Made by a program: the position numbers and the translations under genes. A stretch of 8,828 nucleotides of DNA, from NCBI GenBank assembly GCA_000004985.1, contig GG739054.1. One strand, written 5' to 3'. The notes under the pieces were generated by a model, which saw only the letters and a program-made list of their open reading frames with translations, searched no databases and had not been told where the DNA came from. This document shows positions 1 through 8,828 of this stretch, piece after piece (position 1 is the first letter of the stretch; every line of letters starts with the position of its first letter). This stretch comes from Naegleria gruberi (lineage: Eukaryota).

Positions 1-7
1 ATTTCAG

Positions 8-184
8 TCATTGACTACTTTGTGGAGTATTCTCTTCATGGTTTATATTAATGTGTTGCAATTGTGTACTCCTCTAGCTCCGTCAATTATTTTGTGGACA
101 GATTTTGTATTTTTGATTATTGCCTTTGTACTCATTGTTTCTTTCAAGGGTAACTTTAGTCCTGTCTTGGTGAATAGTAAATAA
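8..184 (+). CDS. Partial 3'-terminal coding exon of an upstream gene, probably a small membrane protein; the 5' part lies off-window.
   Basis: The window opens with 'atttcag', a UUUCAG-type 3' splice site. Positions 8-181 are then open for 58 codons (SLTTLWSILFMVYINVLQLCTPLAPSIILWTDFVFLIIAFVLIVSFKGNFSPVLVNSK) and end at TAA 182-184, which is embedded in AATAAA 180-185. The translation is strongly hydrophobic and TM-like. The supplied ORF track omits it because it has no ATG. Confidence 0.35.
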   Translation, partial: SLTTLWSILFMVYINVLQLCTPLAPSIILWTDFVFLIIAFVLIVSFKGNFSPVLVNSK

Positions 185-185
185 A
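180..185 (+). promoter_or_regulatory. AATAAA poly(A) signal overlapping the stop codon of the 8-184 exon.
   Basis: 'agtaAATAAAattg'. The stop TAA at 182-184 sits inside the hexamer. Confidence 0.4.
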
Positions 186-412
186 ATTGAAGACCAATCT
201 TTCAGGAACCACAAAAGTTACCGTTACGAATGTTGATGATTTTTTTTAAAAATTTAGAAAAAAAATAAAATATTCTTTAACGAATTACACGTTGATATTT
301 TCCTTCAGGTACATTCAACAGATTTATCTTCAAGGTGTTGAAGTGGGGAATGATACTATGAAACAACAAGTGTGAATTATGTAAAGGCTGATTTCCTTCA
401 ACATGGTGAAAG

Positions 413-418
413 TTTATT
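413..418 (-). promoter_or_regulatory. AATAAA poly(A) signal (minus strand) overlapping the stop codon of the 414-1110 gene.
   Basis: Minus-strand 'caagAATAAActttc'. The stop TAA lies inside the hexamer. Confidence 0.4.
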
Positions 419-553
419 CTTGCTGTTGTTGGTCATCCTCTTCGAAGAGTAATTCATCTTGATCAGCTTCGTTCATATCTTCCAAGGCAAATTCGTACCT
501 TTCCAAATCTCTCTTGAGTTGGGTAGAGTTGAATCCATGAACCATTCCACATC
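414..553 (-). CDS. Exon 2 (3'-terminal) of the CxxC...CxxC zinc-binding (Yippee/Mis18-like) protein gene. It encodes ...G-CGMVHGFNSTQLKRDLERYEFALEDMNEADQDELLFEEDDQQQQE*.
   Basis: On the minus strand this is the only open frame after a 70-bp intron at 554-623 (donor G|GTAAGT, acceptor ttaaaAG|). Splicing joins 'CVG' to 'CGM', which recreates a second C-x2-C motif about 46 residues after the 'CAHC' motif. Stop TAA is at 414-416 and lies within AATAAA (413-418, minus). The C-terminus is an acidic tail. Confidence 0.6.
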
Positions 554-623
554 CTTTTAATCATCATCATAAGATATCATCAAATAATAATATTACATTC
601 CAGTGATGAAGAAGAAAACTTAC

Positions 624-1110
624 CAACACAAACATGGAGAGAAACTCCATCACCATCTGTTAATGCTGTCAGCTGTGGAGTTTGACCAGAGACTGTTCTA
701 CCATTTGGAAACTCCAAATACATGCCATCACTGTTACCATTACAAACAAAGATGAATTCGGAGCCACCACAGTGAGCACAGGTCTTGTCGGATGATGTTT
801 TGGCTGATTTTGCTTCTGTTTCGTCCGAGTCTTCACCTAAAGTGGTGGTGTTTTGATTTCTCTTTCTCTTCTTGAAAGTTTCCACATAGTCTACTGGAAT
901 AATCTTTAATGATTCATTCCTGATGGTTGAATAAATATTGGAAACACTCAGTAAATCACAATGATTGTACAGAGAGACATCATTCAGAAAATCCTTCTTT
1001 TCCAAATTGTATCTATCACAAATTCTTTCATAATTCTTGTGAATCTTTTCCAAGTCTGACTTGTAATAGTTTTTGATTAAATGTTGAAGACGAGTAGGAT
1101 CGTGAGGCAT
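624..1110 (-). CDS. Exon 1 of the CxxC...CxxC zinc-binding protein gene (MPHDPTRLQHLIKNYYKSDLEK...TCAHCGGSEFIFVCNGNSDGMYLEFPNGRTVSGQTPQLTALTDGDGVSLHVCVG).
   Basis: ATG is at 1108-1110 on the minus strand, with an A-rich pre-ATG context (acaaaATG). The frame is open for 162 codons down to a consensus 5' splice site (G|GTAAGTTTT) at 623. 'SCAHC...(46 aa)...CVGCG' resembles the two zinc knuckles of Yippee/Mis18-type domains, and the downstream 'YEFALED' recalls Yippee 'YEFATED'. The full spliced product is about 208 aa. Confidence 0.65.
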
Positions 1111-1343
1111 TTTGTTTTGTTACGTAATCAAAAGTTACTACTGTGTCCCGTTGCTTAATTTGGAAGCATCTTTTGAGGCAGGACCATTTGAATTTGGAAG
1201 TACATTCGAGGCACAAAGTAGCATTGGTCGGTTAAACTTTGCACATTCATGGATTAATTGTTTCACAAAAATCCAGTATTAAAATATAAGCAATTATTGT
1301 TCTTGAGATGTTCATTTCATTCCAAATGAACGTGAAGCGTCGA

Positions 1344-1354
1344 TGGTTTAGTGG
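1344..1354 (+). promoter_or_regulatory. Pol III A box (TGGTTTAGTGG) of the tRNA-Gly gene. The B box (GGTTCAATTCC) is split by the insertion; only GGTTCAATTgt remains contiguous at 1386-1396.
   Basis: Matches the TRGYNNARNGG A-box consensus at tRNA positions 8-18. B-box positions 61-62 (CC) are displaced about 316 bp downstream. Confidence 0.6.
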
Positions 1355-1387
1355 TAGAATACGGCGTTGCCATCGCCGTGACCCGGG

Positions 1388-1394
1388 TTCAATT
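1388..1394 (+). repeat. Left copy of the 7-bp target-site duplication (TTCAATT).
   Basis: Identical to 1704-1710. Both copies correspond to the tRNA T-loop. Confidence 0.6.
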
Positions 1395-1446
1395 GTATGT
1401 TTGAATGTTCCATATATAGTAAACCGTCTCCCGTTACCCAATTTCA

Positions 1447-1460
1447 TTTTTTTAAAAAAA
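1447..1460 (+). terminator. Internal T7 run (1447-1453) followed by A7 (1454-1460) inside the insertion. It is a potential premature pol III terminator for transcripts started at the disrupted tRNA promoter.
   Basis: 'tttttttaaaaaaa'. A run of four or more T residues on the coding strand terminates pol III. The run lies about 110 nt downstream of tRNA position +1. Confidence 0.35.
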
Positions 1461-1506
1461 TTAAAAAATTTTAAATGCGTCGACCAGTTTATAACACACA
1501 TACAAC

Positions 1507-1540
1507 ATTCCCAAAAAGGAAAAGCGACTCCCGGTATCAA
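1507..1540 (+). repeat. Internal copy ('unit A') of the element-3'-end/tRNA junction motif ATTCCYAAAAAGGAA-N7-TCCCGGT. The second copy ('unit B') is at 1688-1717.
   Basis: 1507-1521 attcccaaaaaggaa vs 1688-1702 attcctaaaaaggaa (14/15 identical). After a 7-nt divergent spacer, 1529-1535 tcccggt vs 1711-1717 tcccggt (7/7). Both are followed by TTAAT-containing AT-rich sequence, and each is near a taaatattaaata-like motif. Confidence 0.5.
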
Positions 1541-1703
1541 ATAATTAATATTAAATACATTTATTGTTGTTGTTCTTGAATGGTACCTTTCCAAATATGG
1601 TGAATCGACTCACGGGTACCCTACTTCAACACATTTACACGTTGTTCATTATTCAATATTGTAAACTATTTAAATATTAAATATAATATTCCTAAAAAGG
1701 AAT

Positions 1704-1710
1704 TTCAATT
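1704..1710 (+). repeat. Right copy of the 7-bp target-site duplication (TTCAATT).
   Basis: Identical to 1388-1394 and directly followed by the tRNA T-stem 3' half, CCCGG. Confidence 0.6.
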
Positions 1711-1736
1711 CCCGGTCGACGCAGTCATAACATTAA

Positions 1737-1741
1737 TTTTT
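1737..1741 (+). terminator. Pol III terminator (T5) of the original tRNA-Gly gene.
   Basis: 'ttttt' lies 14 nt after discriminator A1723. Confidence 0.6.
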
Positions 1742-1842
1742 AATCATCATAACAATTGAGTCACTCATTGTTTCAAATTGTAACCTAGGCATACCATTAT
1801 ACAATATTCTCAATTTTTGAATTTTAATAATTTATATTGAGC

Positions 1843-1852
1843 TATATATAAA
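1843..1852 (+). promoter_or_regulatory. Candidate TATA box (TATATATAAA) about 60-70 bp upstream of the ATG at 1914.
   Basis: Sequence motif only; the spacing is compatible with a short 5' UTR. Confidence 0.25.
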
Positions 1853-1913
1853 TCAAAGTTTGTACCTCATTTTTTTTAAATGCCTCAAACCCGATGAACT
1901 TTTCTAAAAAAAA

Positions 1914-2011
1914 ATGAAACGAGAACTTTTTACTTCCTTACCTCCAGAAATTCTTCTCTTGATAATGAAGTTTATTAGGAATGATCAAGATGATGATTTG
2001 GATATTCTTGG
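1914..2011 (+). CDS. Candidate exon 1 of an F-box / Rab-like gene (MKRELFTSLPPEILLLIMKFIRNDQDDDLDILG...). The 3' boundary is uncertain: the donor could be at 2012 (GG|GTATCA) or at 2027 (AT|GTTTAA).
   Basis: ATG is in an A-rich context (aaaaaaaaATGaaa). 'LPPEILLLIMKFI' is a typical F-box core (LPxEIL..I..F.). The continuous frame stops at 2094-2096. To reach the long downstream frame a GT-AG intron must end at AG 2114-2115. Donors at 1970, 2012 or 2027 all satisfy the phase; 2012 keeps most of the F-box. Confidence 0.4.
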
Positions 2012-2115
2012 GTATCATTGGGATATGTTTAATATGCAATGCATATGCAGGATCTTGATGATTATTTTGATGAGTTTTGGTGGAATTATTTCATGATGAA
2101 ATTTAAATTGTTTAG

Positions 2116-2507
2116 ATATGAATGTGATGTGGACAAGGAATTGGACATGGAAACCTGGAAAGATGTACAGAATTTGAAACAGAAAAAGGAAATGAAGGAT
2201 ACACTCTATTTCAGACAACACCATCATGAGTTTGAAGCAATTTACAAAATTCTTTCCAATCCAAAGGTTTCAATGCGAAGAAAAGTTTTAATTTCGTGCA
2301 TGAAGAGAAAATTAAGGATGAAATCCAAACCAGAAAAGGAAATGTTTGCTCTTCTTTTGGGAATTGACAATGTTGGAAAGAGGTGTATTGTGAGGCGAGT
2401 TGCTGATGGATTATTTGATAGATCGCCTAATAGGAAGATATTGTCTTCAAGGAGGATAAAATTAGAGATTGATGGTGTAGAATTGACTATTAGAGTTAAA
2501 GAACTAG
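2116..2507 (+). CDS. Exon 2 of the F-box / Rab-like gene: a linker plus the N-terminal half of a Ras/Rab-like GTPase domain (...EMFALLLGIDNVGKRCIVRRVADGLFDRSPNRKILSSRRIKLEIDGVELTIRVKEL).
   Basis: The frame is open from 2033 to 2518; the acceptor is 'ttgtttAG|' at 2115. It aligns with the Rab core KLLLIGDSGVGKS.LL.RF..D.F......TIGVDF..K.I..DG...KLQIWDTAGQE. Here the equivalent is LLLGIDNVGKRCIVRRVAD..F...IKLEIDGVELTIRVKEL. The P-loop ends GKR rather than GK[S/T], and WDTAGQ is replaced by VKELD. 'AG|GTACGA' at 2508 is a donor placed just before an in-frame TAA at 2519. Confidence 0.55.
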
Positions 2508-2558
2508 GTACGAAAATATAATTTGAATGTAATTTTAACATTCTAATAATGGAAAAAG

Positions 2559-2724
2559 ATTATTATGAAGTGCAAGACGAAAAGGAAAAAAGAGAAGAAG
2601 AAGTTAGGAAAATGTGTACGGAACAGTCGTGTTTCGTGCTTGTTTGTAGCTTGGATCAAAAGGATTCAGTCCAAAGTTTAAACAAGATTCTTTGTGATAT
2701 AATTCGTTTTAAAAAACGAAACTC
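2559..2724 (+). CDS. Exon 3 of the F-box / Rab-like gene (...YYEVQDEKEKREEEVRKMCTEQSCFVLVCSLDQKDSVQSLNKILCDIIRFKKRN...). It is truncated by the assembly gap.
   Basis: A 51-bp intron at 2508-2558 (GTACGA...aaaaAG) restores the frame across the stop at 2519-2521. 'CFVLVCSLDQKDSVQSLNKILCDIIRF' aligns with the Rab '[27 protein letters not shown]' segment (beta4-alpha3). The G4 and G5 motifs would lie in the gap. The exact acceptor is uncertain (first AG is 2557-2558; alternatives are 2570 and 2576). Confidence 0.45.
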
Positions 2725-5700
2725 NNNNNNNNNNNNNNNNNNNNNNNNNNNNNNNNNNNNNNNNNNNNNNNNNNNNNNNNNNNNNNNNNNNNNNNNNNNN
2801 NNNNNNNNNNNNNNNNNNNNNNNNNNNNNNNNNNNNNNNNNNNNNNNNNNNNNNNNNNNNNNNNNNNNNNNNNNNNNNNNNNNNNNNNNNNNNNNNNNNN
2901 NNNNNNNNNNNNNNNNNNNNNNNNNNNNNNNNNNNNNNNNNNNNNNNNNNNNNNNNNNNNNNNNNNNNNNNNNNNNNNNNNNNNNNNNNNNNNNNNNNNN
3001 NNNNNNNNNNNNNNNNNNNNNNNNNNNNNNNNNNNNNNNNNNNNNNNNNNNNNNNNNNNNNNNNNNNNNNNNNNNNNNNNNNNNNNNNNNNNNNNNNNNN
3101 NNNNNNNNNNNNNNNNNNNNNNNNNNNNNNNNNNNNNNNNNNNNNNNNNNNNNNNNNNNNNNNNNNNNNNNNNNNNNNNNNNNNNNNNNNNNNNNNNNNN
3201 NNNNNNNNNNNNNNNNNNNNNNNNNNNNNNNNNNNNNNNNNNNNNNNNNNNNNNNNNNNNNNNNNNNNNNNNNNNNNNNNNNNNNNNNNNNNNNNNNNNN
3301 NNNNNNNNNNNNNNNNNNNNNNNNNNNNNNNNNNNNNNNNNNNNNNNNNNNNNNNNNNNNNNNNNNNNNNNNNNNNNNNNNNNNNNNNNNNNNNNNNNNN
3401 NNNNNNNNNNNNNNNNNNNNNNNNNNNNNNNNNNNNNNNNNNNNNNNNNNNNNNNNNNNNNNNNNNNNNNNNNNNNNNNNNNNNNNNNNNNNNNNNNNNN
3501 NNNNNNNNNNNNNNNNNNNNNNNNNNNNNNNNNNNNNNNNNNNNNNNNNNNNNNNNNNNNNNNNNNNNNNNNNNNNNNNNNNNNNNNNNNNNNNNNNNNN
3601 NNNNNNNNNNNNNNNNNNNNNNNNNNNNNNNNNNNNNNNNNNNNNNNNNNNNNNNNNNNNNNNNNNNNNNNNNNNNNNNNNNNNNNNNNNNNNNNNNNNN
3701 NNNNNNNNNNNNNNNNNNNNNNNNNNNNNNNNNNNNNNNNNNNNNNNNNNNNNNNNNNNNNNNNNNNNNNNNNNNNNNNNNNNNNNNNNNNNNNNNNNNN
3801 NNNNNNNNNNNNNNNNNNNNNNNNNNNNNNNNNNNNNNNNNNNNNNNNNNNNNNNNNNNNNNNNNNNNNNNNNNNNNNNNNNNNNNNNNNNNNNNNNNNN
3901 NNNNNNNNNNNNNNNNNNNNNNNNNNNNNNNNNNNNNNNNNNNNNNNNNNNNNNNNNNNNNNNNNNNNNNNNNNNNNNNNNNNNNNNNNNNNNNNNNNNN
4001 NNNNNNNNNNNNNNNNNNNNNNNNNNNNNNNNNNNNNNNNNNNNNNNNNNNNNNNNNNNNNNNNNNNNNNNNNNNNNNNNNNNNNNNNNNNNNNNNNNNN
4101 NNNNNNNNNNNNNNNNNNNNNNNNNNNNNNNNNNNNNNNNNNNNNNNNNNNNNNNNNNNNNNNNNNNNNNNNNNNNNNNNNNNNNNNNNNNNNNNNNNNN
4201 NNNNNNNNNNNNNNNNNNNNNNNNNNNNNNNNNNNNNNNNNNNNNNNNNNNNNNNNNNNNNNNNNNNNNNNNNNNNNNNNNNNNNNNNNNNNNNNNNNNN
4301 NNNNNNNNNNNNNNNNNNNNNNNNNNNNNNNNNNNNNNNNNNNNNNNNNNNNNNNNNNNNNNNNNNNNNNNNNNNNNNNNNNNNNNNNNNNNNNNNNNNN
4401 NNNNNNNNNNNNNNNNNNNNNNNNNNNNNNNNNNNNNNNNNNNNNNNNNNNNNNNNNNNNNNNNNNNNNNNNNNNNNNNNNNNNNNNNNNNNNNNNNNNN
4501 NNNNNNNNNNNNNNNNNNNNNNNNNNNNNNNNNNNNNNNNNNNNNNNNNNNNNNNNNNNNNNNNNNNNNNNNNNNNNNNNNNNNNNNNNNNNNNNNNNNN
4601 NNNNNNNNNNNNNNNNNNNNNNNNNNNNNNNNNNNNNNNNNNNNNNNNNNNNNNNNNNNNNNNNNNNNNNNNNNNNNNNNNNNNNNNNNNNNNNNNNNNN
4701 NNNNNNNNNNNNNNNNNNNNNNNNNNNNNNNNNNNNNNNNNNNNNNNNNNNNNNNNNNNNNNNNNNNNNNNNNNNNNNNNNNNNNNNNNNNNNNNNNNNN
4801 NNNNNNNNNNNNNNNNNNNNNNNNNNNNNNNNNNNNNNNNNNNNNNNNNNNNNNNNNNNNNNNNNNNNNNNNNNNNNNNNNNNNNNNNNNNNNNNNNNNN
4901 NNNNNNNNNNNNNNNNNNNNNNNNNNNNNNNNNNNNNNNNNNNNNNNNNNNNNNNNNNNNNNNNNNNNNNNNNNNNNNNNNNNNNNNNNNNNNNNNNNNN
5001 NNNNNNNNNNNNNNNNNNNNNNNNNNNNNNNNNNNNNNNNNNNNNNNNNNNNNNNNNNNNNNNNNNNNNNNNNNNNNNNNNNNNNNNNNNNNNNNNNNNN
5101 NNNNNNNNNNNNNNNNNNNNNNNNNNNNNNNNNNNNNNNNNNNNNNNNNNNNNNNNNNNNNNNNNNNNNNNNNNNNNNNNNNNNNNNNNNNNNNNNNNNN
5201 NNNNNNNNNNNNNNNNNNNNNNNNNNNNNNNNNNNNNNNNNNNNNNNNNNNNNNNNNNNNNNNNNNNNNNNNNNNNNNNNNNNNNNNNNNNNNNNNNNNN
5301 NNNNNNNNNNNNNNNNNNNNNNNNNNNNNNNNNNNNNNNNNNNNNNNNNNNNNNNNNNNNNNNNNNNNNNNNNNNNNNNNNNNNNNNNNNNNNNNNNNNN
5401 NNNNNNNNNNNNNNNNNNNNNNNNNNNNNNNNNNNNNNNNNNNNNNNNNNNNNNNNNNNNNNNNNNNNNNNNNNNNNNNNNNNNNNNNNNNNNNNNNNNN
5501 NNNNNNNNNNNNNNNNNNNNNNNNNNNNNNNNNNNNNNNNNNNNNNNNNNNNNNNNNNNNNNNNNNNNNNNNNNNNNNNNNNNNNNNNNNNNNNNNNNNN
5601 NNNNNNNNNNNNNNNNNNNNNNNNNNNNNNNNNNNNNNNNNNNNNNNNNNNNNNNNNNNNNNNNNNNNNNNNNNNNNNNNNNNNNNNNNNNNNNNNNNNN

Positions 5701-6083
5701 NNNNNNNNNNNNNNNNNNNNNNNNNNNNNNNNNNNNNNNNNNNNNNNNNNNNNNNNNNNNNNNNNNNNNNNNNNNNNNNNNNNNNNNNNNNNNNNNNNNN
5801 NNNNNNNNNNNNNNNNNNNNNNNNNNNNNNNNNNNNNNNNNNNNNNNNNNNNNNNNNNNNNNNNNNNNNNNNNNNNNNNNNNNNNNNNNNNNNNNNNNNN
5901 NNNNNNNNNNNNNNNNNNNNNNNNNNNNNNNNNNNNNNNNNNNNNNNNNNNNNNNNNNNNNNNNNNNNNNNNNNNNNNNNNNNNNNNNNNNNNNNNNNNN
6001 NNNNNNNNNNNNNNNNNNNNNNNNNNNNNNNNNNNNNNNNNNNNNNNNNNNNNNNNNNNNNNNNNNNNNNNNNNNNNNNNNNN
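2725..6083. other. Assembly gap of 3359 N. It hides the 3' ends of two convergent genes (2116+ on the plus strand, 6794- on the minus strand).
   Basis: An uninterrupted run of 'n'. The non-round length suggests a gap size estimated from pairing or mapping information. The ORFs 2549..6118(+), 2656..6114(-) and most of 2709..6788(-) in the supplied track are artefacts of translating N as X. Confidence 0.99.
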
Positions 6084-6794
6084 CTTCACACCCTTTGTTG
6101 CAACCAGTGAACAATTAGAAACGAGGAGATTGACGCTTGTCCACGATTTAATGTCTGCCTTCTTCATCTTAATCTTTCTATAATAGCAAATTCCATACTT
6201 TTTCTTTGGTTCTTTGAGTTTGATAATTTGAGAAGTGATATTCTTTCCAGCAACTTCAAACATGACAAGTCTTGTTCTAAATTCTGAAGTGTCCAAAACT
6301 GAAATCTTGAATCTCTTTCCAGCTGAAATTTTAATATAGAGTTGAGTATTGTCACCGTGAGGTGAGAATGGGAAGACAATAGTCTTTTTTGATGGATCCA
6401 CATACTTGTTTGGAGATGTGATTTTGCGAGTGAGGTCAGCAAAAGAAATGTGAGCACTTGCTGATACGATAATACAGCACTCTTTAGCTCCCTTGAATGG
6501 TTTGAATCCAGATAAGCATTTCAAGACGATGTGCTTTCCAAGCCATGAACCTGATGATTTCAGCTCAACAAGAGAAAGTATGGCAGTGCAAACCTTTTCA
6601 TTTCTCAAAGTATCTTCATCCCAAATTTCAACAAGACAATCTCTGGTTCCATCCACATCTGTACAGAACAAATCAAATTCCCAATCAGGATTTGGGTCAT
6701 CTTGCACACATTTTGTTTTAAATGTTTTGGTTTGTCCTCCAATAATCGGAACAATAACAACAGCATAGGCATCAATCGAAGATAACAAATCGGC
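6084..6794 (-). CDS. Exon 2 of a C2-domain protein gene (ADLLSSIDAYAVVIVPIIGGQTKTFKTKCVQDDPNPDWEFDLFCTDVDGTRDCLVEIWDEDTLRNEKVCTAILSL... continuing into the gap). Downstream sequence is of unknown domain.
   Basis: A 237-codon open frame on the minus strand in AT-rich DNA. C2 hallmarks: a hydrophobic beta-strand start, 'K...DPNPDWEFDLF' (cf. C2 'TLNPVWNE.F.F') and 'LVEIWDEDTL' (cf. 'L.V.V.D.D'). It is preceded by the acceptor 'catttAG|' at 6795 and is in phase with exon 1. Confidence 0.7.
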
Positions 6795-6912
6795 CTAAAT
6801 GATGATCATAAATTCAATGCAATTAATAACAACAACATCATCATATGGTAAACAAATCAATAGAGAATTTTAAAACATTAAAAAATCAAATTGTGATGAA
6901 ATTTCTTCTTAC

Positions 6913-6966
6913 CTTTGGAAGATCTCTTCCGCAATGCAAAGTAAGATTAAGGCTAAGCGAGTTCAT
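6913..6966 (-). CDS. Exon 1 of the C2-domain protein gene (MNSLSLNLTLHCGRDLPK), the first beta-strand of the C2 domain.
   Basis: ATG is at 6964-6966 (minus) in an A-rich context (ataaaaaATG). The 18 codons end at a consensus donor AAG|GTAAGA. The 118-bp intron 6795-6912 ends in TTTAG. The join gives '...LTLHCGRDLPKADLLSSIDAYAVVIV', a canonical C2 N-terminus (L.V.V..A..L...D). Confidence 0.6.
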
Positions 6967-7547
6967 TTTTTATAAAATTAAAATACTTAAATTTAATAAC
7001 AAAATAAATTAATTATCGGGTGATTGGGATATTTGATGAAGAATATGATGATGACATTATTCATTGGGAAATCATTTAATACAATGAGAATCTGTGGAGG
7101 AAGAGAATTAAGACACTCTCATAATTTTTACAAATGGAGAAGGAGAACTTCTTGAAATTTGAGATTAAAATTATCTCTCAAGATTCAACTAAAAAGCACC
7201 TCTTGTGGAACAAATTAATATTAATTATTCAATTATTGAATACAGTATTATTATCGCTCTGTATTTCAATTAATTTAGAGATATATGCATTTTTAAATCC
7301 TTATTGAATAATAATATCCCATTCCGAAATTATCAACATCAAGCTGAGCAATAACAACATAAAATAAATTCCAAATAAGTTGCTGAATCGTTCTTTAACT
7401 GTAATTTATTTTTCTTTTGTCCTTATTCTGTTTTTTTATAACGATTTAACTCTAGTAAGACATTACACATCTCAAGCTCCTCCTCCAACACATAACCAAC
7501 ATAAAGAGAGTCAAACGCAAGTTGGATAACAATAACAGAAAAAAAAT

Positions 7548-7577
7548 CAACAACAACAAGAACAACAATAAGAACAA
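7548..7577 (+). repeat. Imperfect (CAA/AAC)n microsatellite in the intergenic or 5' region of the 7599 gene.
   Basis: 'caacaacaacaagaacaacaataagaacaa'. Confidence 0.5.
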
Positions 7578-7598
7578 TTATTTTGTTGTATATAAAGA

Positions 7599-8375
7599 AT
7601 GACCTCCACTTCTTACTCAACTAGTTTAATCGGCTATAGCGCACTCTGGCAATTACTTAAAGGTTTATTGGTCTCCGTGTGGACATGTGTTGTGATGTTG
7701 GCTGAACAATCGTATGAAGGTTGTGTGCTGGATTTGAATGGATACTTTTTAATGCATGAGAATATACTTGATTTACATAATTTATATGAGAGGGACAATC
7801 AGAGTGTTGGCATTCCTGCTGTTGCTTCTTCTAAGGGTGTTGCTGCCTTACCAAAACCAATTCTCGTCAGAACCAAATCCATTTCCATCTCTCCAATATC
7901 AAAGGTTGCTTCCTCTTCAAAACTTCAACCAATCCTGATGAAACAAGCTTCCAATCTTCACTTGACCATTCCAATTATTTCGGTACAACAAGAAGTAGAG
8001 CCATCGATTCCAAAACTCAAAAAGAGTCCTTCCAAGTCAATTGTCCACACTACCAACACAAGATTCCATCAAATTACTCCACCAATTTCTCCTCTTGGCA
8101 ACTTTACATTCCCAGCTGTGAGCTCCAATTCACAAACTCTGTTAGTTCCTCAATTCGAGCTTTTGAATACTCCACCTCCACAACAATCTGCCACCAATCA
8201 AGATTTCAAATCCACTTCTTTCCATACTACTAGTAAGAAGAGACTTTCATTTTCTGCCTTCTCATACGAATTTAATTCAACAACAACAACAAGAGGTAGA
8301 GCTGCCACCATTCAAACTATTGTTCCAAAGCCAGTCATTGAAATCAAACGAATCAAATCCAACTCTCACATGTAA
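7599..8375 (+). CDS. Hypothetical Ser/Thr/Pro-rich protein of 258 aa with an N-proximal hydrophobic segment (SALWQLLKGLLVSVWTCVVMLA). No recognisable domain.
   Basis: A single 777-nt ORF, unusually long for AT-rich DNA. Its composition is rich in TCN/ACN/CCN codons, which is atypical of random AT-rich sequence. The stop at 8373-8375 abuts AATAAA (8375-8380). A TATATAAA motif lies only 3 nt upstream of the ATG, so the true start could be a downstream ATG (e.g. Met33), or the TSS may lie further upstream. Confidence 0.55.
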   Translation: MTSTSYSTSLIGYSALWQLLKGLLVSVWTCVVMLAEQSYEGCVLDLNGYFLMHENILDLHNLYERDNQSVGIPAVASSKGVAALPKPILVRTKSISISPISKVASSSKLQPILMKQASNLHLTIPIISVQQEVEPSIPKLKKSPSKSIVHTTNTRFHQITPPISPLGNFTFPAVSSNSQTLLVPQFELLNTPPPQQSATNQDFKSTSFHTTSKKRLSFSAFSYEFNSTTTTRGRAATIQTIVPKPVIEIKRIKSNSHM

Positions 8376-8380
8376 ATAAA
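8375..8380 (+). promoter_or_regulatory. AATAAA poly(A) signal abutting the stop codon of the 7599-8375 gene.
   Basis: 'catgTAAATAAAtacg'. The stop codon's final A is shared with the hexamer. Confidence 0.4.
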
Positions 8381-8828
8381 TACGAATTAATTGATATCAA
8401 TTTAACCACAAAGAAATTGAAACAGATGTGCATTGCTTAATGTGTGTAGTTTGTTAATAACGAACTCCACGTACATTAAACAAACTGGCTTTCTTCTCAA
8501 CCTTACACTGCGCTATAAGAAATCTTCTCTGTAGTAGAAGTTATCTCCTCCAATAATTTTCCTTTTCAACGAGGCATTCTTTAAAATTGTTTAATGCACA
8601 TGTAGAGAATAGTCTTGTGGAGGTGGAATTATTGGTGATGCAAAGTATTAAGATGAAATATAAAGAACCATTCCCTTTGGGGAGCCTATTTGAATTTCTA
8701 AATTGGCCAAAAACCTGACAAACGAGGTTTGATGTCAGCTGTAAGCACACAAACAAAAACGCATGAAAGGATCACTTAAAAAAAATGCCAGCAATAAACC
8801 TGTCAAATGCCAGCAGCAGACTTCAAAC

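What the first reader, a model, noticed from the sequence alone, without database searches (positions are those of the whole stretch)
1337..1741. tRNA-Gly(GCC) gene cleanly split in its T-loop by a ~309-bp insertion with a 7-bp target-site duplication
The 5' 58 nt of a textbook eukaryotic tRNA-Gly(GCC) end at 1394. That segment contains the acceptor 5' half, D-arm/A box, anticodon arm, variable loop, T-stem 5' half and the T-loop TTCAATT. The missing T-stem 3' half, acceptor 3' half and discriminator (CCCGG-TCGACGC-A) reappear at 1711-1723. They are preceded by a second copy of TTCAATT at 1704-1710 and followed by the expected T5 terminator. Removing 1395-1710 regenerates a 72-nt tRNA with every stem base-paired. 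The acceptor is 7/7 Watson-Crick, the T-stem 5/5 and the anticodon stem 5/5. This precise reconstruction is the signature of a transposon insertion with a 7-bp TSD inside a pol III gene body at tRNA position 60/61. It is not a canonical tRNA intron, which sits at 37/38, and it is not a permuted gene. TE insertions are usually targeted upstream of tRNA genes rather than into the structural RNA, so an in-gene hit with a perfectly preserved host gene is uncommon. It indicates a very recent event, or a multi-copy tRNA-Gly family that tolerates the loss of one member.
Basis: seen in the sequence. Interest (0 to 1): 0.75.

Follow-up and report, generated by a model that had tools for sequence, protein, structure and literature searches.

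The report
Insertion-split glycine tRNA gene, Naegleria
One copy of a glycine tRNA gene in the amoeba Naegleria gruberi has been cut in two by a recent 309-base insertion of repeat DNA that is absent from the same spot in a close relative, so it is a dead gene copy and not a new kind of split or intron-bearing tRNA.

Summary
They are separated by 309 bp plus a second copy of the 7-nt T-loop, TTCAATT. The window is a whole 8.8-kb scaffold of Naegleria gruberi. Two contigs from one metagenome carry the same locus at about 95-97% identity, and there the T-loop is uninterrupted. The empty site therefore exists and the 316 bp are an insertion. The gene copy is dead: a T7 pol III terminator lies 53 nt into the insert, no splicing motif forms, and tRNA finders fail on it. 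The insert has no terminal inverted repeats and no coding capacity. It is a diverged two-unit head-to-tail repeat. Each unit starts with a copy of this tRNA's own 5' flank and ends in a hairpin followed by a T-loop/T-stem-like motif. It therefore looks like DNA descended from tRNA-Gly gene units, not like a classical transposon. I could not search the Naegleria genome, so copy number is unknown. The mechanism stays open between repair or recombination copying from a decayed paralogous array and a TIR-less, Dada-like site-specific transposon. Interest is modest.

The parts
1337..1394 (+). 5' 58 nt of tRNA-Gly(GCC): acceptor 5' strand, D arm with A box, anticodon arm, variable loop, T-stem 5' strand and T-loop
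   Evidence: Read directly. It is 100% identical to the intact gene in L001, L002 and L010. Rfam gives a sub-threshold tRNA match here.
1388..1394 (+). First copy of TTCAATT, the T-loop (tRNA nt 54-60); left copy of the 7-bp direct repeat
1395..1703 (+). 309-bp insert: 29% G+C, no long ORF, no TIRs, absent from the orthologous locus in a close relative
   Evidence: Absent in L001 and L013. G+C content. All six frames are full of stops. The TIR test gives p about 0.4.
1391..1445 (+). Repeat A1, which begins at the left junction (its first bases overlap CAATT of the T-loop). It is homologous to A2 and to the native 5' flank A0.
   Evidence: A1 versus A2 scores 27 against a null of 9.9+-1.9, exceeded by 0 of 2000 shuffles. 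nhmmer E = 3e-10.
1447..1453 (+). T7 run (with a T4 run at 1469-1472): pol III terminator signals inside the insert, 53 nt after the junction
1476..1488 (-). ACTGGTCGACGCA, an 11/13 match to the tRNA 3' end on the minus strand. On the plus strand the same bases read GCGTCGAC, the tRNA 5' acceptor strand. They start a weak tRNA-Gly-like stretch at 1477-1513.
   Evidence: 0.01 expected by chance; p = 0.02-0.04 for the pseudo-tRNA alignment
1493..1538 (+). Repeat B1: hairpin ATTCCCAAAAAGGAA followed by AAGCGACT and CCCGGT, a T-loop/T-stem-3'-like motif inside the insert
   Evidence: (p about 0.01, same register at a 181-nt offset)
1566..1627 (+). Repeat A2: a diverged copy of the tRNA's 5' flank, starting the second unit of the insert
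   Evidence: A0 versus A2 scores 20.5 against a null of 9.4+-1.8, exceeded by 0 of 2000 shuffles. nhmmer E = 4e-15.
1674..1720 (+). Repeat B2: hairpin ATTCCTAAAAAGGAAT at the 3' end of the insert, running on into the real T-loop and T-stem 3' strand
1704..1710 (+). Second copy of TTCAATT; right copy of the direct repeat
1711..1723 (+). 3' 13 nt of the tRNA: T-stem 3' strand, acceptor 3' strand and discriminator A
1737..1741 (+). T5 terminator of the original gene; also present in the empty allele L013
1291..1346 (+). A0: the native 5' flank plus the first bases of the tRNA. Positions 1302-1336 are only 63% identical to the relative, against about 96% for neighbouring DNA.

Best explanation
This is a recent insertion allele that inactivates one member of the N. 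gruberi tRNA-Gly(GCC) family. Three steps are shown. First, the ancestral locus carried an intact 71-nt gene. Second, 309 bp were placed in its T arm, with the 7-nt T-loop present on both sides. Third, the product cannot make a tRNA. Transcription from the A box would stop at the T7 run 53 nt into the insert, and no splicing motif forms. The mechanism is inferred. The inserted block is not a classical transposon. It is a two-unit, head-to-tail repeat descended from tRNA-Gly gene units. Each unit opens with a roughly 70%-identical copy of this gene's own 5' flank and closes with a hairpin followed by a T-loop/T-stem-3'-like motif. The units are far more diverged from each other and from the locus (about 60-70% identity) than the two alleles are (about 96%). 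The block must therefore have existed elsewhere and been copied in as a whole. I think the most likely route is repair of a break in the T arm by copying from, or recombining with, a paralogous decayed array of tRNA-Gly units. In that route T-loop homology is used on the right (TTCAATT-CCCGGT). CAATT microhomology is used on the left, because the A repeat itself starts CAATT. The flanking heptamers would then reflect that homology, or a 7-nt backward template switch, and not a transposase cut. The confidence given (0.45) is for this mechanism; that the 316 bp are a recent gene-killing insertion I hold at about 0.9.
For: The empty site is seen from both sides in a relative: L001 covers the 5' flank and tRNA nt 1-70, and L013 covers tRNA nt 18-71 and the 3' flank. 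The tRNA halves are 100% conserved and rebuild a canonical tRNA. Intact identical genes occur at other loci. The T7 and T4 runs are in the insert. In the precursor fold the 3' acceptor strand pairs with the internal GCGTCGACC, and no bulge-helix-bulge forms. There are no TIRs. Unit 1 versus unit 2 gives z = 6.4. A1~A2 and A0~A2 were each exceeded by 0 of 2000 shuffles. B1~B2 gives p about 0.01, in register. An acceptor-stem fragment lies in the insert where 0.01 is expected. The pseudo-tRNA-like stretch gives p = 0.02-0.04. A1 starts at the left junction and B2 ends at the right junction, so neither terminus is foreign to the locus family.
Against: No donor locus was seen, because the N. gruberi genome could not be searched. 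A perfect 7-bp duplication whose ends fall exactly on the stem/loop boundaries is the textbook mark of a staggered transposase or integrase cut. In the sibling repeat B1 the T-loop is decayed (AGCGACT), so a donor unit with a perfect TTCAATT next to a fully decayed T-stem 5' strand is a somewhat special requirement. The B, pseudo-tRNA and 3'-flank similarities are weak or not significant on their own. The CAATT microhomology rests on an alignment with p = 0.07. A priori, most clean insertions of about 300 bp with flanking repeats in eukaryotes are TEs.
Confidence: 0.45

Rival explanations
1. A non-autonomous, TIR-less, site-specific DNA transposon (Dada-like or a new family) cut the T arm with a 7-nt stagger at the two stem/loop boundaries and inserted, making a true TSD. 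The tRNA-like and flank-like pieces inside it would be fossils of earlier target loci carried along. The whole would be a composite of two related elements with an old target remnant between them.
For: The direct repeat is exactly 7 bp and coincides with the T-loop, inside a perfectly inverted pair of 5-bp half-sites, CCGGG/CCCGG. There are no TIRs. The insert is small, AT-rich and non-coding. The empty site is clean. Dada elements insert inside tRNA and snRNA genes, make 6-7-bp TSDs, lack TIRs, carry target-like subterminal motifs, sometimes drag ancestral flanking sequence along, and can insert in tandem (PMC3706591; PMC8869645). B1 looks like an element 3' end followed by an old target.
Against: No second copy was found anywhere accessible, although these sources hardly sample Naegleria. 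The 5' terminus (A1) is homologous to the native, ancestral 5' flank of this very gene (A0, which is about 73% identical to the relative's flank). A transposon end should not be. Known Dada sites are tRNA nt 8-13 and the anticodon region, not the T-loop. No Dada transposase from Naegleria is on record, and my profile search was uninformative.
Confidence: 0.35
2. Polarity is reversed. A small array of tRNA-Gly-like units is ancestral at this locus, and the relative lost it by recombination between the two T-loop heptamers, regenerating an intact gene.
For: The insert is made of units related to the locus's own 5' flank. This 5' flank is unusually diverged between the two strains, as if the haplotypes were old.
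Against: The inner units are about 30-40% diverged, yet the outer 58 nt and 20 nt are identical to the functional tRNA. An old, untranscribable pseudogene could not stay perfect. A 7-bp-mediated precise deletion that happens to rebuild a perfect gene is improbable. An intact tRNA must in any case have been the original state.
Confidence: 0.05
3. The insert is a 5'-truncated non-LTR retrotransposon or other retro-copy inserted by target-primed reverse transcription, with a 7-bp TSD.
For: There is a TSD of a plausible length, no TIRs, and a short, non-coding insert.
Against: Neither orientation has a poly(A) or simple-repeat tail. The insert contains copies of the non-transcribed 5' flank of a pol III gene, which points to a DNA-level origin. 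T runs in both orientations exclude a pol III SINE.
Confidence: 0.05
4. It is a functional non-canonical intron or a split tRNA whose halves are joined at the RNA level.
For: The halves are perfectly preserved and the reconstruction is exact.
Against: T7 and T4 terminators lie inside the insert. No bulge-helix-bulge motif forms at the junctions, and the 3' acceptor strand prefers an internal partner. The same locus has an ordinary uninterrupted gene in a close relative. At 316 nt it is far beyond known eukaryotic tRNA introns.
Confidence: 0.02
5. It is an assembly artefact: reads from two tRNA-Gly loci were mis-joined in a small scaffold.
For: The window is an 8.8-kb leftover scaffold with a 3.4-kb gap. 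It duplicates part of a 207-kb scaffold.
Against: Both flanks are collinear with single contigs of the relative, so the two halves belong to one locus. The junctions are clean and the insert lies well away from the gap at 2725-6083.
Confidence: 0.03

Closest known systems
Dada superfamily of DNA transposons (Kojima & Jurka 2013, PMC3706591; Kojima 2022, PMC8869645)
   Same: Insertion inside the body of a multicopy tRNA gene, within a pol III promoter box. The flanking duplication is 6-7 bp. There are no terminal inverted repeats. Short non-autonomous derivatives exist. Target-like motifs lie near the element ends, ancestral target sequence is sometimes carried along, and tandem insertions occur.
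   Different: Known tRNA sites are nt 8-13 (A box) and the anticodon region, not the T-loop/B box. No transposase link, no second copy and no Naegleria Dada are known. Both ends of this insert are related to the host locus itself, which is not described for Dada.
Templated or ectopic insertion at a double-strand break (gene conversion or synthesis-dependent repair between dispersed tRNA gene copies, microhomology-mediated template switching); established knowledge, not tested here
   Same: A block of pre-existing, diverged paralogous DNA appears between two points of short homology. The junctions lie in sequence shared by donor and recipient (the T-loop, and CAATT).
   Different: No donor has been identified. 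A perfect 7-bp duplication bounded exactly by the stem/loop borders is not the usual outcome.
Non-canonical tRNA introns and split or permuted tRNA genes (Cyanidioschyzon merolae, nucleomorphs, Crenarchaeota, Nanoarchaeum); from general knowledge
   Same: A tRNA coding sequence is interrupted outside position 37/38, with exact reconstruction on removal.
   Different: Those are short or have bulge-helix-bulge junctions, are transcribed through, and are fixed. This one has internal pol III terminators, no such motif, and is polymorphic against an ordinary gene.
tRNA-gene-targeted retroelements (Dictyostelium TRE5/TRE3 and DGLT-A, yeast Ty3) and prokaryotic integrases using tRNA 3' ends
   Same: tRNA genes serve as landing pads. 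Integrase-type elements leave duplicated tRNA T-arm or 3' fragments.
   Different: The eukaryotic elements land upstream or downstream, not inside the gene (PMC3706591 discussion). Integrase-type insertion regenerates an intact tRNA at one junction, which is not the case here.

Membership tests
Dada DNA transposons | Target-site duplication of 6-7 bp | tested here: met
   Exactly 7 bp, TTCAATT, at 1388-1394 and 1704-1710. It could also arise from T-loop homology.
Dada DNA transposons | No terminal inverted repeats | tested here: met
   The first 30 or 50 nt against the reverse complement of the last 30 or 50 nt give p = 0.36-0.45.
Dada DNA transposons | Insertion at one specific site inside a multicopy small-RNA gene, shown by several copies at the same site | not testable with these tools
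   Only one copy is visible. The host genome is not in any searchable collection. A JGI scan for interrupted copies gave 0 hits, but only one Naegleria-like copy of this tRNA is in that collection.
Dada DNA transposons | [quoted passage not shown] | tested here: inconclusive
   ATTCC/GGAAT lie at the 3' end and ATTCC lies in the target (1689-1693, 1699-1703, 1708-1712). No matching partner occurs at the 5' end.
Dada DNA transposons | Mobilised by a Dada DDE transposase present in the genome | tested here: inconclusive
   A profile of 5 Dada transposases from Dataset S1 found only Perkinsus proteins. The search scored only 8000 word-sharing candidates.
MITE / TIR DNA transposon | Terminal inverted repeats plus a TSD of family-specific length | tested here: not met
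   No TIRs.
Solo LTR | TG...CA termini and a 4-6-bp TSD | tested here: not met
   None of the 8 possible registers of the element gives TG...CA with a matching duplication.
Helitron | Insertion between A and T without a TSD; 5'-TC and 3'-CTRR ends | tested here: not met
   A 7-bp duplication is present. No register starts with TC and ends with CTRR.
tRNA-derived SINE / non-LTR retro-copy | Internal A and B boxes at the 5' end, a 3' tail, and transcribable by pol III | tested here: not met
   There is no A box at either end and no tail. T runs of 4 or more occur in both orientations. The insert contains copies of non-transcribed 5' flank.
Canonical eukaryotic tRNA intron | Located between nt 37 and 38, tens of nt long, and transcribed through | tested here: not met
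   Located at 60/61 and 316 nt long, with internal T7 and T4 terminators.
Bulge-helix-bulge (non-canonical) tRNA intron or split tRNA | Both junctions lie in 3-nt bulges separated by a 4-bp helix | tested here: not met
   The minimum-free-energy fold of 1337-1723 shows no such motif. The 3' acceptor strand pairs with 1477-1485.
Insertional tRNA pseudogene (polymorphic) | An orthologous empty site exists, and the interrupted copy is not recognisable as a tRNA | tested here: met
   L001 and L013. ARAGORN and Rfam are negative on the window.

The most novel reading that the evidence does not exclude
The insert is one member of an undescribed mobile family in Heterolobosea that lands specifically in the T-loop/B box of tRNA genes. 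It would be either a new Dada-like lineage with a third kind of tRNA target site or a new TIR-less family. Its elements would be built from, or have captured, tRNA-gene units including 5' flanks.
Probability: 0.25. Interest if true: 0.55.

Novelty: new member of a known kind. Interest (0 to 1): 0.3.

Why it matters
As it stands, this is one disabled member of a multicopy tRNA family, which is ordinary. It has some value as a clean, polarised insertion polymorphism in Naegleria: the filled allele is in strain NEG-M and the empty allele in a relative about 96% identical. The inserted DNA is itself made of decayed tRNA-Gly gene units, which is unusual. If a genome search showed many copies in T-loops, it would add a B-box-targeting lineage to the few known sequence-specific DNA transposons. 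It would also extend them to Heterolobosea. If instead a single decayed array turned out to be the donor, it would be a well-resolved natural example of templated insertion between dispersed tRNA genes.

Tried and rejected
1. Spliceosomal intron. The insert starts GTATGT, but no register within the 7-bp ambiguity ends in AG while restoring the tRNA (read).

2. Other tRNA or known RNA family in the insert. There were only sub-threshold noise hits.

3. Retrieving the second N. gruberi copy of the region, on the 207-kb scaffold. The proteins P0001, P0002 and P0003 are not in the contig index.

4. Finding other copies of the insert.
   - A protein search with the 115-aa ORF across the insert returned only tRNA-derived ORFs.
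   - Exact ORF look-ups were absent.
   - A JGI scan for interrupted copies gave 0 hits.
   - A JGI scan for the tRNA 3' 20-mer gave 10 loci. Only one was Naegleria-like, and it was intact.
   - Scans of viral contigs gave 0 hits.
   - blastn and nhmmer against all fetched loci gave only noise or self hits.
   - A GTDB scan for the 3'-junction 22-mer gave one chance hit inside a Bacteroidia coding region.

5. Dada transposase in Naegleria. The profile search was uninformative, and no paper links Dada with Naegleria TEs. The genome paper is not held.

6. The claim that the insert also copies the 3' flank. It is not significant on its own, so it is dropped. The significant 'junction test' is driven by the 5'-flank repeat and CTCCCGGT.

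7. The idea that the third unit is a whole decayed tRNA. Not significant.

8. RIP-like rapid decay of an in-situ duplication. The units differ by indels and transversions as well as transitions.
Full report
**Observation**

- Positions 1337-1394 are the first 58 nt of a tRNA-Gly(GCC), ending with the T-loop TTCAATT.
- The same heptamer recurs at 1704-1710.
- It is followed by CCCGGTCGACGCA at 1711-1723 and a T5 run at 1737-1741.

ARAGORN finds no tRNA in the window as it stands. Rfam finds nothing at gathering score, and only an 18.8-bit sub-threshold tRNA match at 1337-1401. Once 1395-1710 is removed, ARAGORN calls a 71-nt tRNA-Gly(gcc) with all stems paired.

The 13-nt 3' part is not a chance match. 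Shuffles of the window give 0.01 matches even when two mismatches are allowed.

Two small corrections apply. The gene is 71 nt, not 72. The removed stretch is 316 nt, made of 309 nt plus one heptamer. The duplicated heptamer is exactly the T-loop, nt 54-60.

**Where the window comes from**

A spliced gene on the minus strand (414-1110) is 100% identical to a predicted protein of Naegleria gruberi. That protein's longest contig is 8828 bp, so the window is a whole small scaffold. It holds a 3.4-kb assembly gap at 2725-6083.

The 258-aa protein encoded at 7599-8375 is also annotated on a 207,235-bp scaffold. A variant of the 208-aa protein, more than 90% identical, sits on that scaffold too. The sequenced clone therefore holds two near-identical versions of this region, alleles or a very recent duplicate. 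I could not retrieve the DNA of the second one.

**The empty site exists**

The 90% cluster of the neighbouring protein contained an ORF from an ENA metagenome, ERZ929261.

Its contig L001 aligns to window 169-1394 at about 96% identity. It reads ...GACCCGGGTTCAATTCCCGGTCGACGC without interruption, and the contig ends at tRNA nt 70.

A search with the downstream ORF led to a second contig from the same sample, L013. L013 reads ...GACCCGGGTTCAATTCCCGGTCGACGCA followed by a 3' flank about 95% identical to window 1724 onward. At its start it carries 13 nt of the L001-type 5' flank.

A close relative therefore has the same locus with the T-loop intact, seen from both sides.

An identical, intact 71-nt gene also lies at two other loci with unrelated flanks, in Naegleria-like contigs L002 and L010. 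The gene is multicopy, and TTCAATT is its normal T-loop.

An intact tRNA must be the original state, so the 316 bp are an insertion. The two tRNA parts carry no substitution, which limits the age of the event to roughly the divergence of the two strains or less.

**Not an intron or a split gene**

- The insert contains a T7 run at 1447-1453 and a T4 run at 1469-1472. A pol III transcript started from the A box would end about 53-60 nt past the junction.
- In the minimum-free-energy fold of 1337-1723 the junctions are not in a bulge-helix-bulge motif. The 3' acceptor strand pairs with an internal GCGTCGACC instead of the 5' end.
- The insert begins GTATGT, but no register consistent with the tRNA ends in AG.
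- The relative has an ordinary gene at this locus.

This gene copy is dead.

**Anatomy of the insert**

The insert is 29% G+C and has stops in all frames. It has no terminal inverted repeats (p about 0.4). In none of the eight possible registers does it have LTR-like or Helitron-like ends.

It is internally repetitive. Positions 1395-1575 and 1576-1756 align over their whole length with z = 6.4. Two repeat types stand out.

*Repeat A* occurs three times:
- A0 at 1291-1346 is the native 5' flank plus the first bases of the tRNA.
- A1 at 1391-1445 starts at the left junction.
- A2 at 1566-1627 lies in the middle of the insert.

The A1~A2 and A0~A2 alignments were each exceeded by none of 2000 dinucleotide shuffles.

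*Repeat B* occurs twice:
- B1 at 1493-1538.
- B2 at 1674-1720.

Each is a hairpin, ATTCCYAAAAAGGAA, followed by 7-8 nt and then CCCGGT. In B2 those following bases are the real T-loop and T-stem. In B1 they are a decayed look-alike, AAGCGACT-CCCGGT (p about 0.01, same register at a 181-nt offset).

Between them lies GCGTCGAC, the acceptor stem, where 0.01 matches are expected. It heads a weak tRNA-Gly-like stretch (p = 0.02-0.04).

An apparent copy of the 3' flank is not significant by itself, and I do not rely on it.

The native 5' flank at 1302-1336 is only 63% identical to the relative by gapped alignment, or about 73% by my ungapped count. Nearby DNA is about 96% identical. The two flanks are still clearly orthologous. 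At the sites where the two strains differ, A2 agrees with the window allele (read).

A0 is therefore host DNA, and A1 and A2 are old paralogues of it.

**Mechanism**

The units inside the insert are about 30-40% diverged from each other and from the locus. The filled and empty alleles differ by about 4%. The block therefore cannot have been built in place after the strains split. It pre-existed somewhere and arrived as a whole.

Both of its ends belong to the same sequence family as the locus: A at the left end and B at the right. This leaves no obviously foreign transposon termini. It contains copies of the non-transcribed 5' flank of a pol III gene, so its origin is at the DNA level and not through an RNA.

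My preferred reading, at roughly 0.45, runs as follows. A break in the T arm was repaired by copying from, or recombining with, a paralogous decayed array of tRNA-Gly units. On the right the T-loop/T-stem homology was used. On the left the CAATT shared by the T-loop and the start of the A repeat was used. The heptamer on both sides then reflects that homology, or a 7-nt backward template switch.

The main rival, at roughly 0.35, is a genuine TIR-less, site-specific transposon. A 7-bp duplication bounded exactly by the stem/loop borders is what a dimeric DDE transposase making a 7-nt staggered cut would leave. The T-loop here lies between perfectly inverted 5-bp half-sites, CCGGG...CCCGG. B1 would then be the fossil of an earlier target carried between two element copies.

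Minor rivals, none above 0.05, are a retro-copy, reversed polarity (an ancestral array lost in the relative), mis-assembly and an RNA-level split gene. The reasons against each are given with the rival explanations.

**Comparison with what is known**

The closest described system is the Dada superfamily. Dada elements insert at fixed sites inside tRNA, snRNA and 5S genes and make 6-7-bp duplications. They lack TIRs, have target-like subterminal motifs, and sometimes carry ancestral target sequence. They occur in tandem and include a tRNA-Gly-specific family in the protist Perkinsus (PMC3706591; PMC8869645).

The features I could test are met: TSD length, absence of TIRs, and location inside a tRNA gene. 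The defining ones remain untested or inconclusive: several copies at one site, the subterminal repeat pattern, and a Dada transposase in the genome. Known Dada tRNA sites are nt 8-13 and the anticodon region, not the T-loop.

I therefore do not file the insert as Dada.

It fails the tests for MITE, solo LTR, Helitron, SINE, canonical intron and bulge-helix-bulge intron.

**Limits**

The decisive computation is a search of the N. gruberi genome for the insert, and none of the collections available holds that genome. All attempts to find further copies were negative but barely informative. Only one Naegleria-like copy of this tRNA is in the JGI metagenome set.

**Verdict**

The finding is real and the insertion reading is right, with the empty site now documented. 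It is a polymorphic, insertion-killed member of a multicopy tRNA family. Such in-gene hits have a known precedent.

The unusual aspect is the make-up of the insert, which consists of decayed tRNA-Gly gene units including 5' flanks and lies in phase with the host gene. That leaves a minority chance of an undescribed T-loop-targeting mobile family. Interest is 0.3.

Noticed in passing
L006 11162-11976 (minus strand): Contig CAJIAS010000001.1, from the metagenome-contig scan, carries 45 tRNA genes in about 6 kb. In it a tRNA-Gly-like 5' start (GCGTCGATAGTTCAATGGG) and a 3' end (...TCCGGAGTTCAATTCCCGGTCGACGCA) lie about 770 nt apart, and ARAGORN calls no tRNA there. This is a second interrupted tRNA-Gly in an unrelated organism. 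Rfam finds no intron family in the intervening DNA.
   Followed up: partly
L013 1-70 versus L001 1-120: Two contigs from the same metagenome disagree at this locus. L001 has the full tRNA 5' end. L013 joins the 5' flank (CAGTGAATATGAA) directly to tRNA nt 18 (GTAGAATACGG...), a 17-nt deletion. This is either a second, independently damaged allele in that population or a contig-tip artefact.
   Followed up: no
window 1302-1336: The 35 nt just upstream of the tRNA are only 63% identical to the relative, with a 6-nt indel. The surrounding intergenic and coding DNA is about 96% identical. Both alleles form a hairpin there, with different sequences (GTTCATTT...AAATGAAC in the window). This could be transcription-associated mutation at a pol III gene or an old haplotype block.
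   Followed up: partly
window 1-8828 (whole scaffold); gap 2725-6083: The window is an entire 8.8-kb N. gruberi scaffold with a 3359-N gap. It duplicates genes also annotated on a 207-kb scaffold (identical 258-aa protein; the 208-aa protein differs at its C-terminus in a way I read as a frameshift in a CAA repeat). It is probably the alternative haplotype, perhaps kept apart by the assembler because of the 316-bp indel.
   Followed up: partly
L008 178-260 (minus strand): A metagenome contig has the same 20-nt tRNA-Gly 3' end, preceded by a sequence with a TCC anticodon loop but no matching T-stem 5' strand or acceptor. ARAGORN calls no tRNA. It may be another damaged tRNA-Gly.
   Followed up: no
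L014 1627-1648: The 22-mer across the right junction (CCTAAAAAGGAATTTCAATTCC) occurs once in the GTDB genomes, inside a Bacteroidia protein-coding region and followed by unrelated sequence. It is a chance match and a reminder that single 22-mer hits in 596 Gb mean little.
   Followed up: yes
window 1914-2724: The downstream gene has an F-box-like N-terminus, a Ras-like GTPase part (a weak Pfam Ras hit on the L013 ORF) and a short intron at about 2509-2568. It runs into the assembly gap. A C2-domain-like gene lies on the minus strand at 6084-6964.
   Followed up: no
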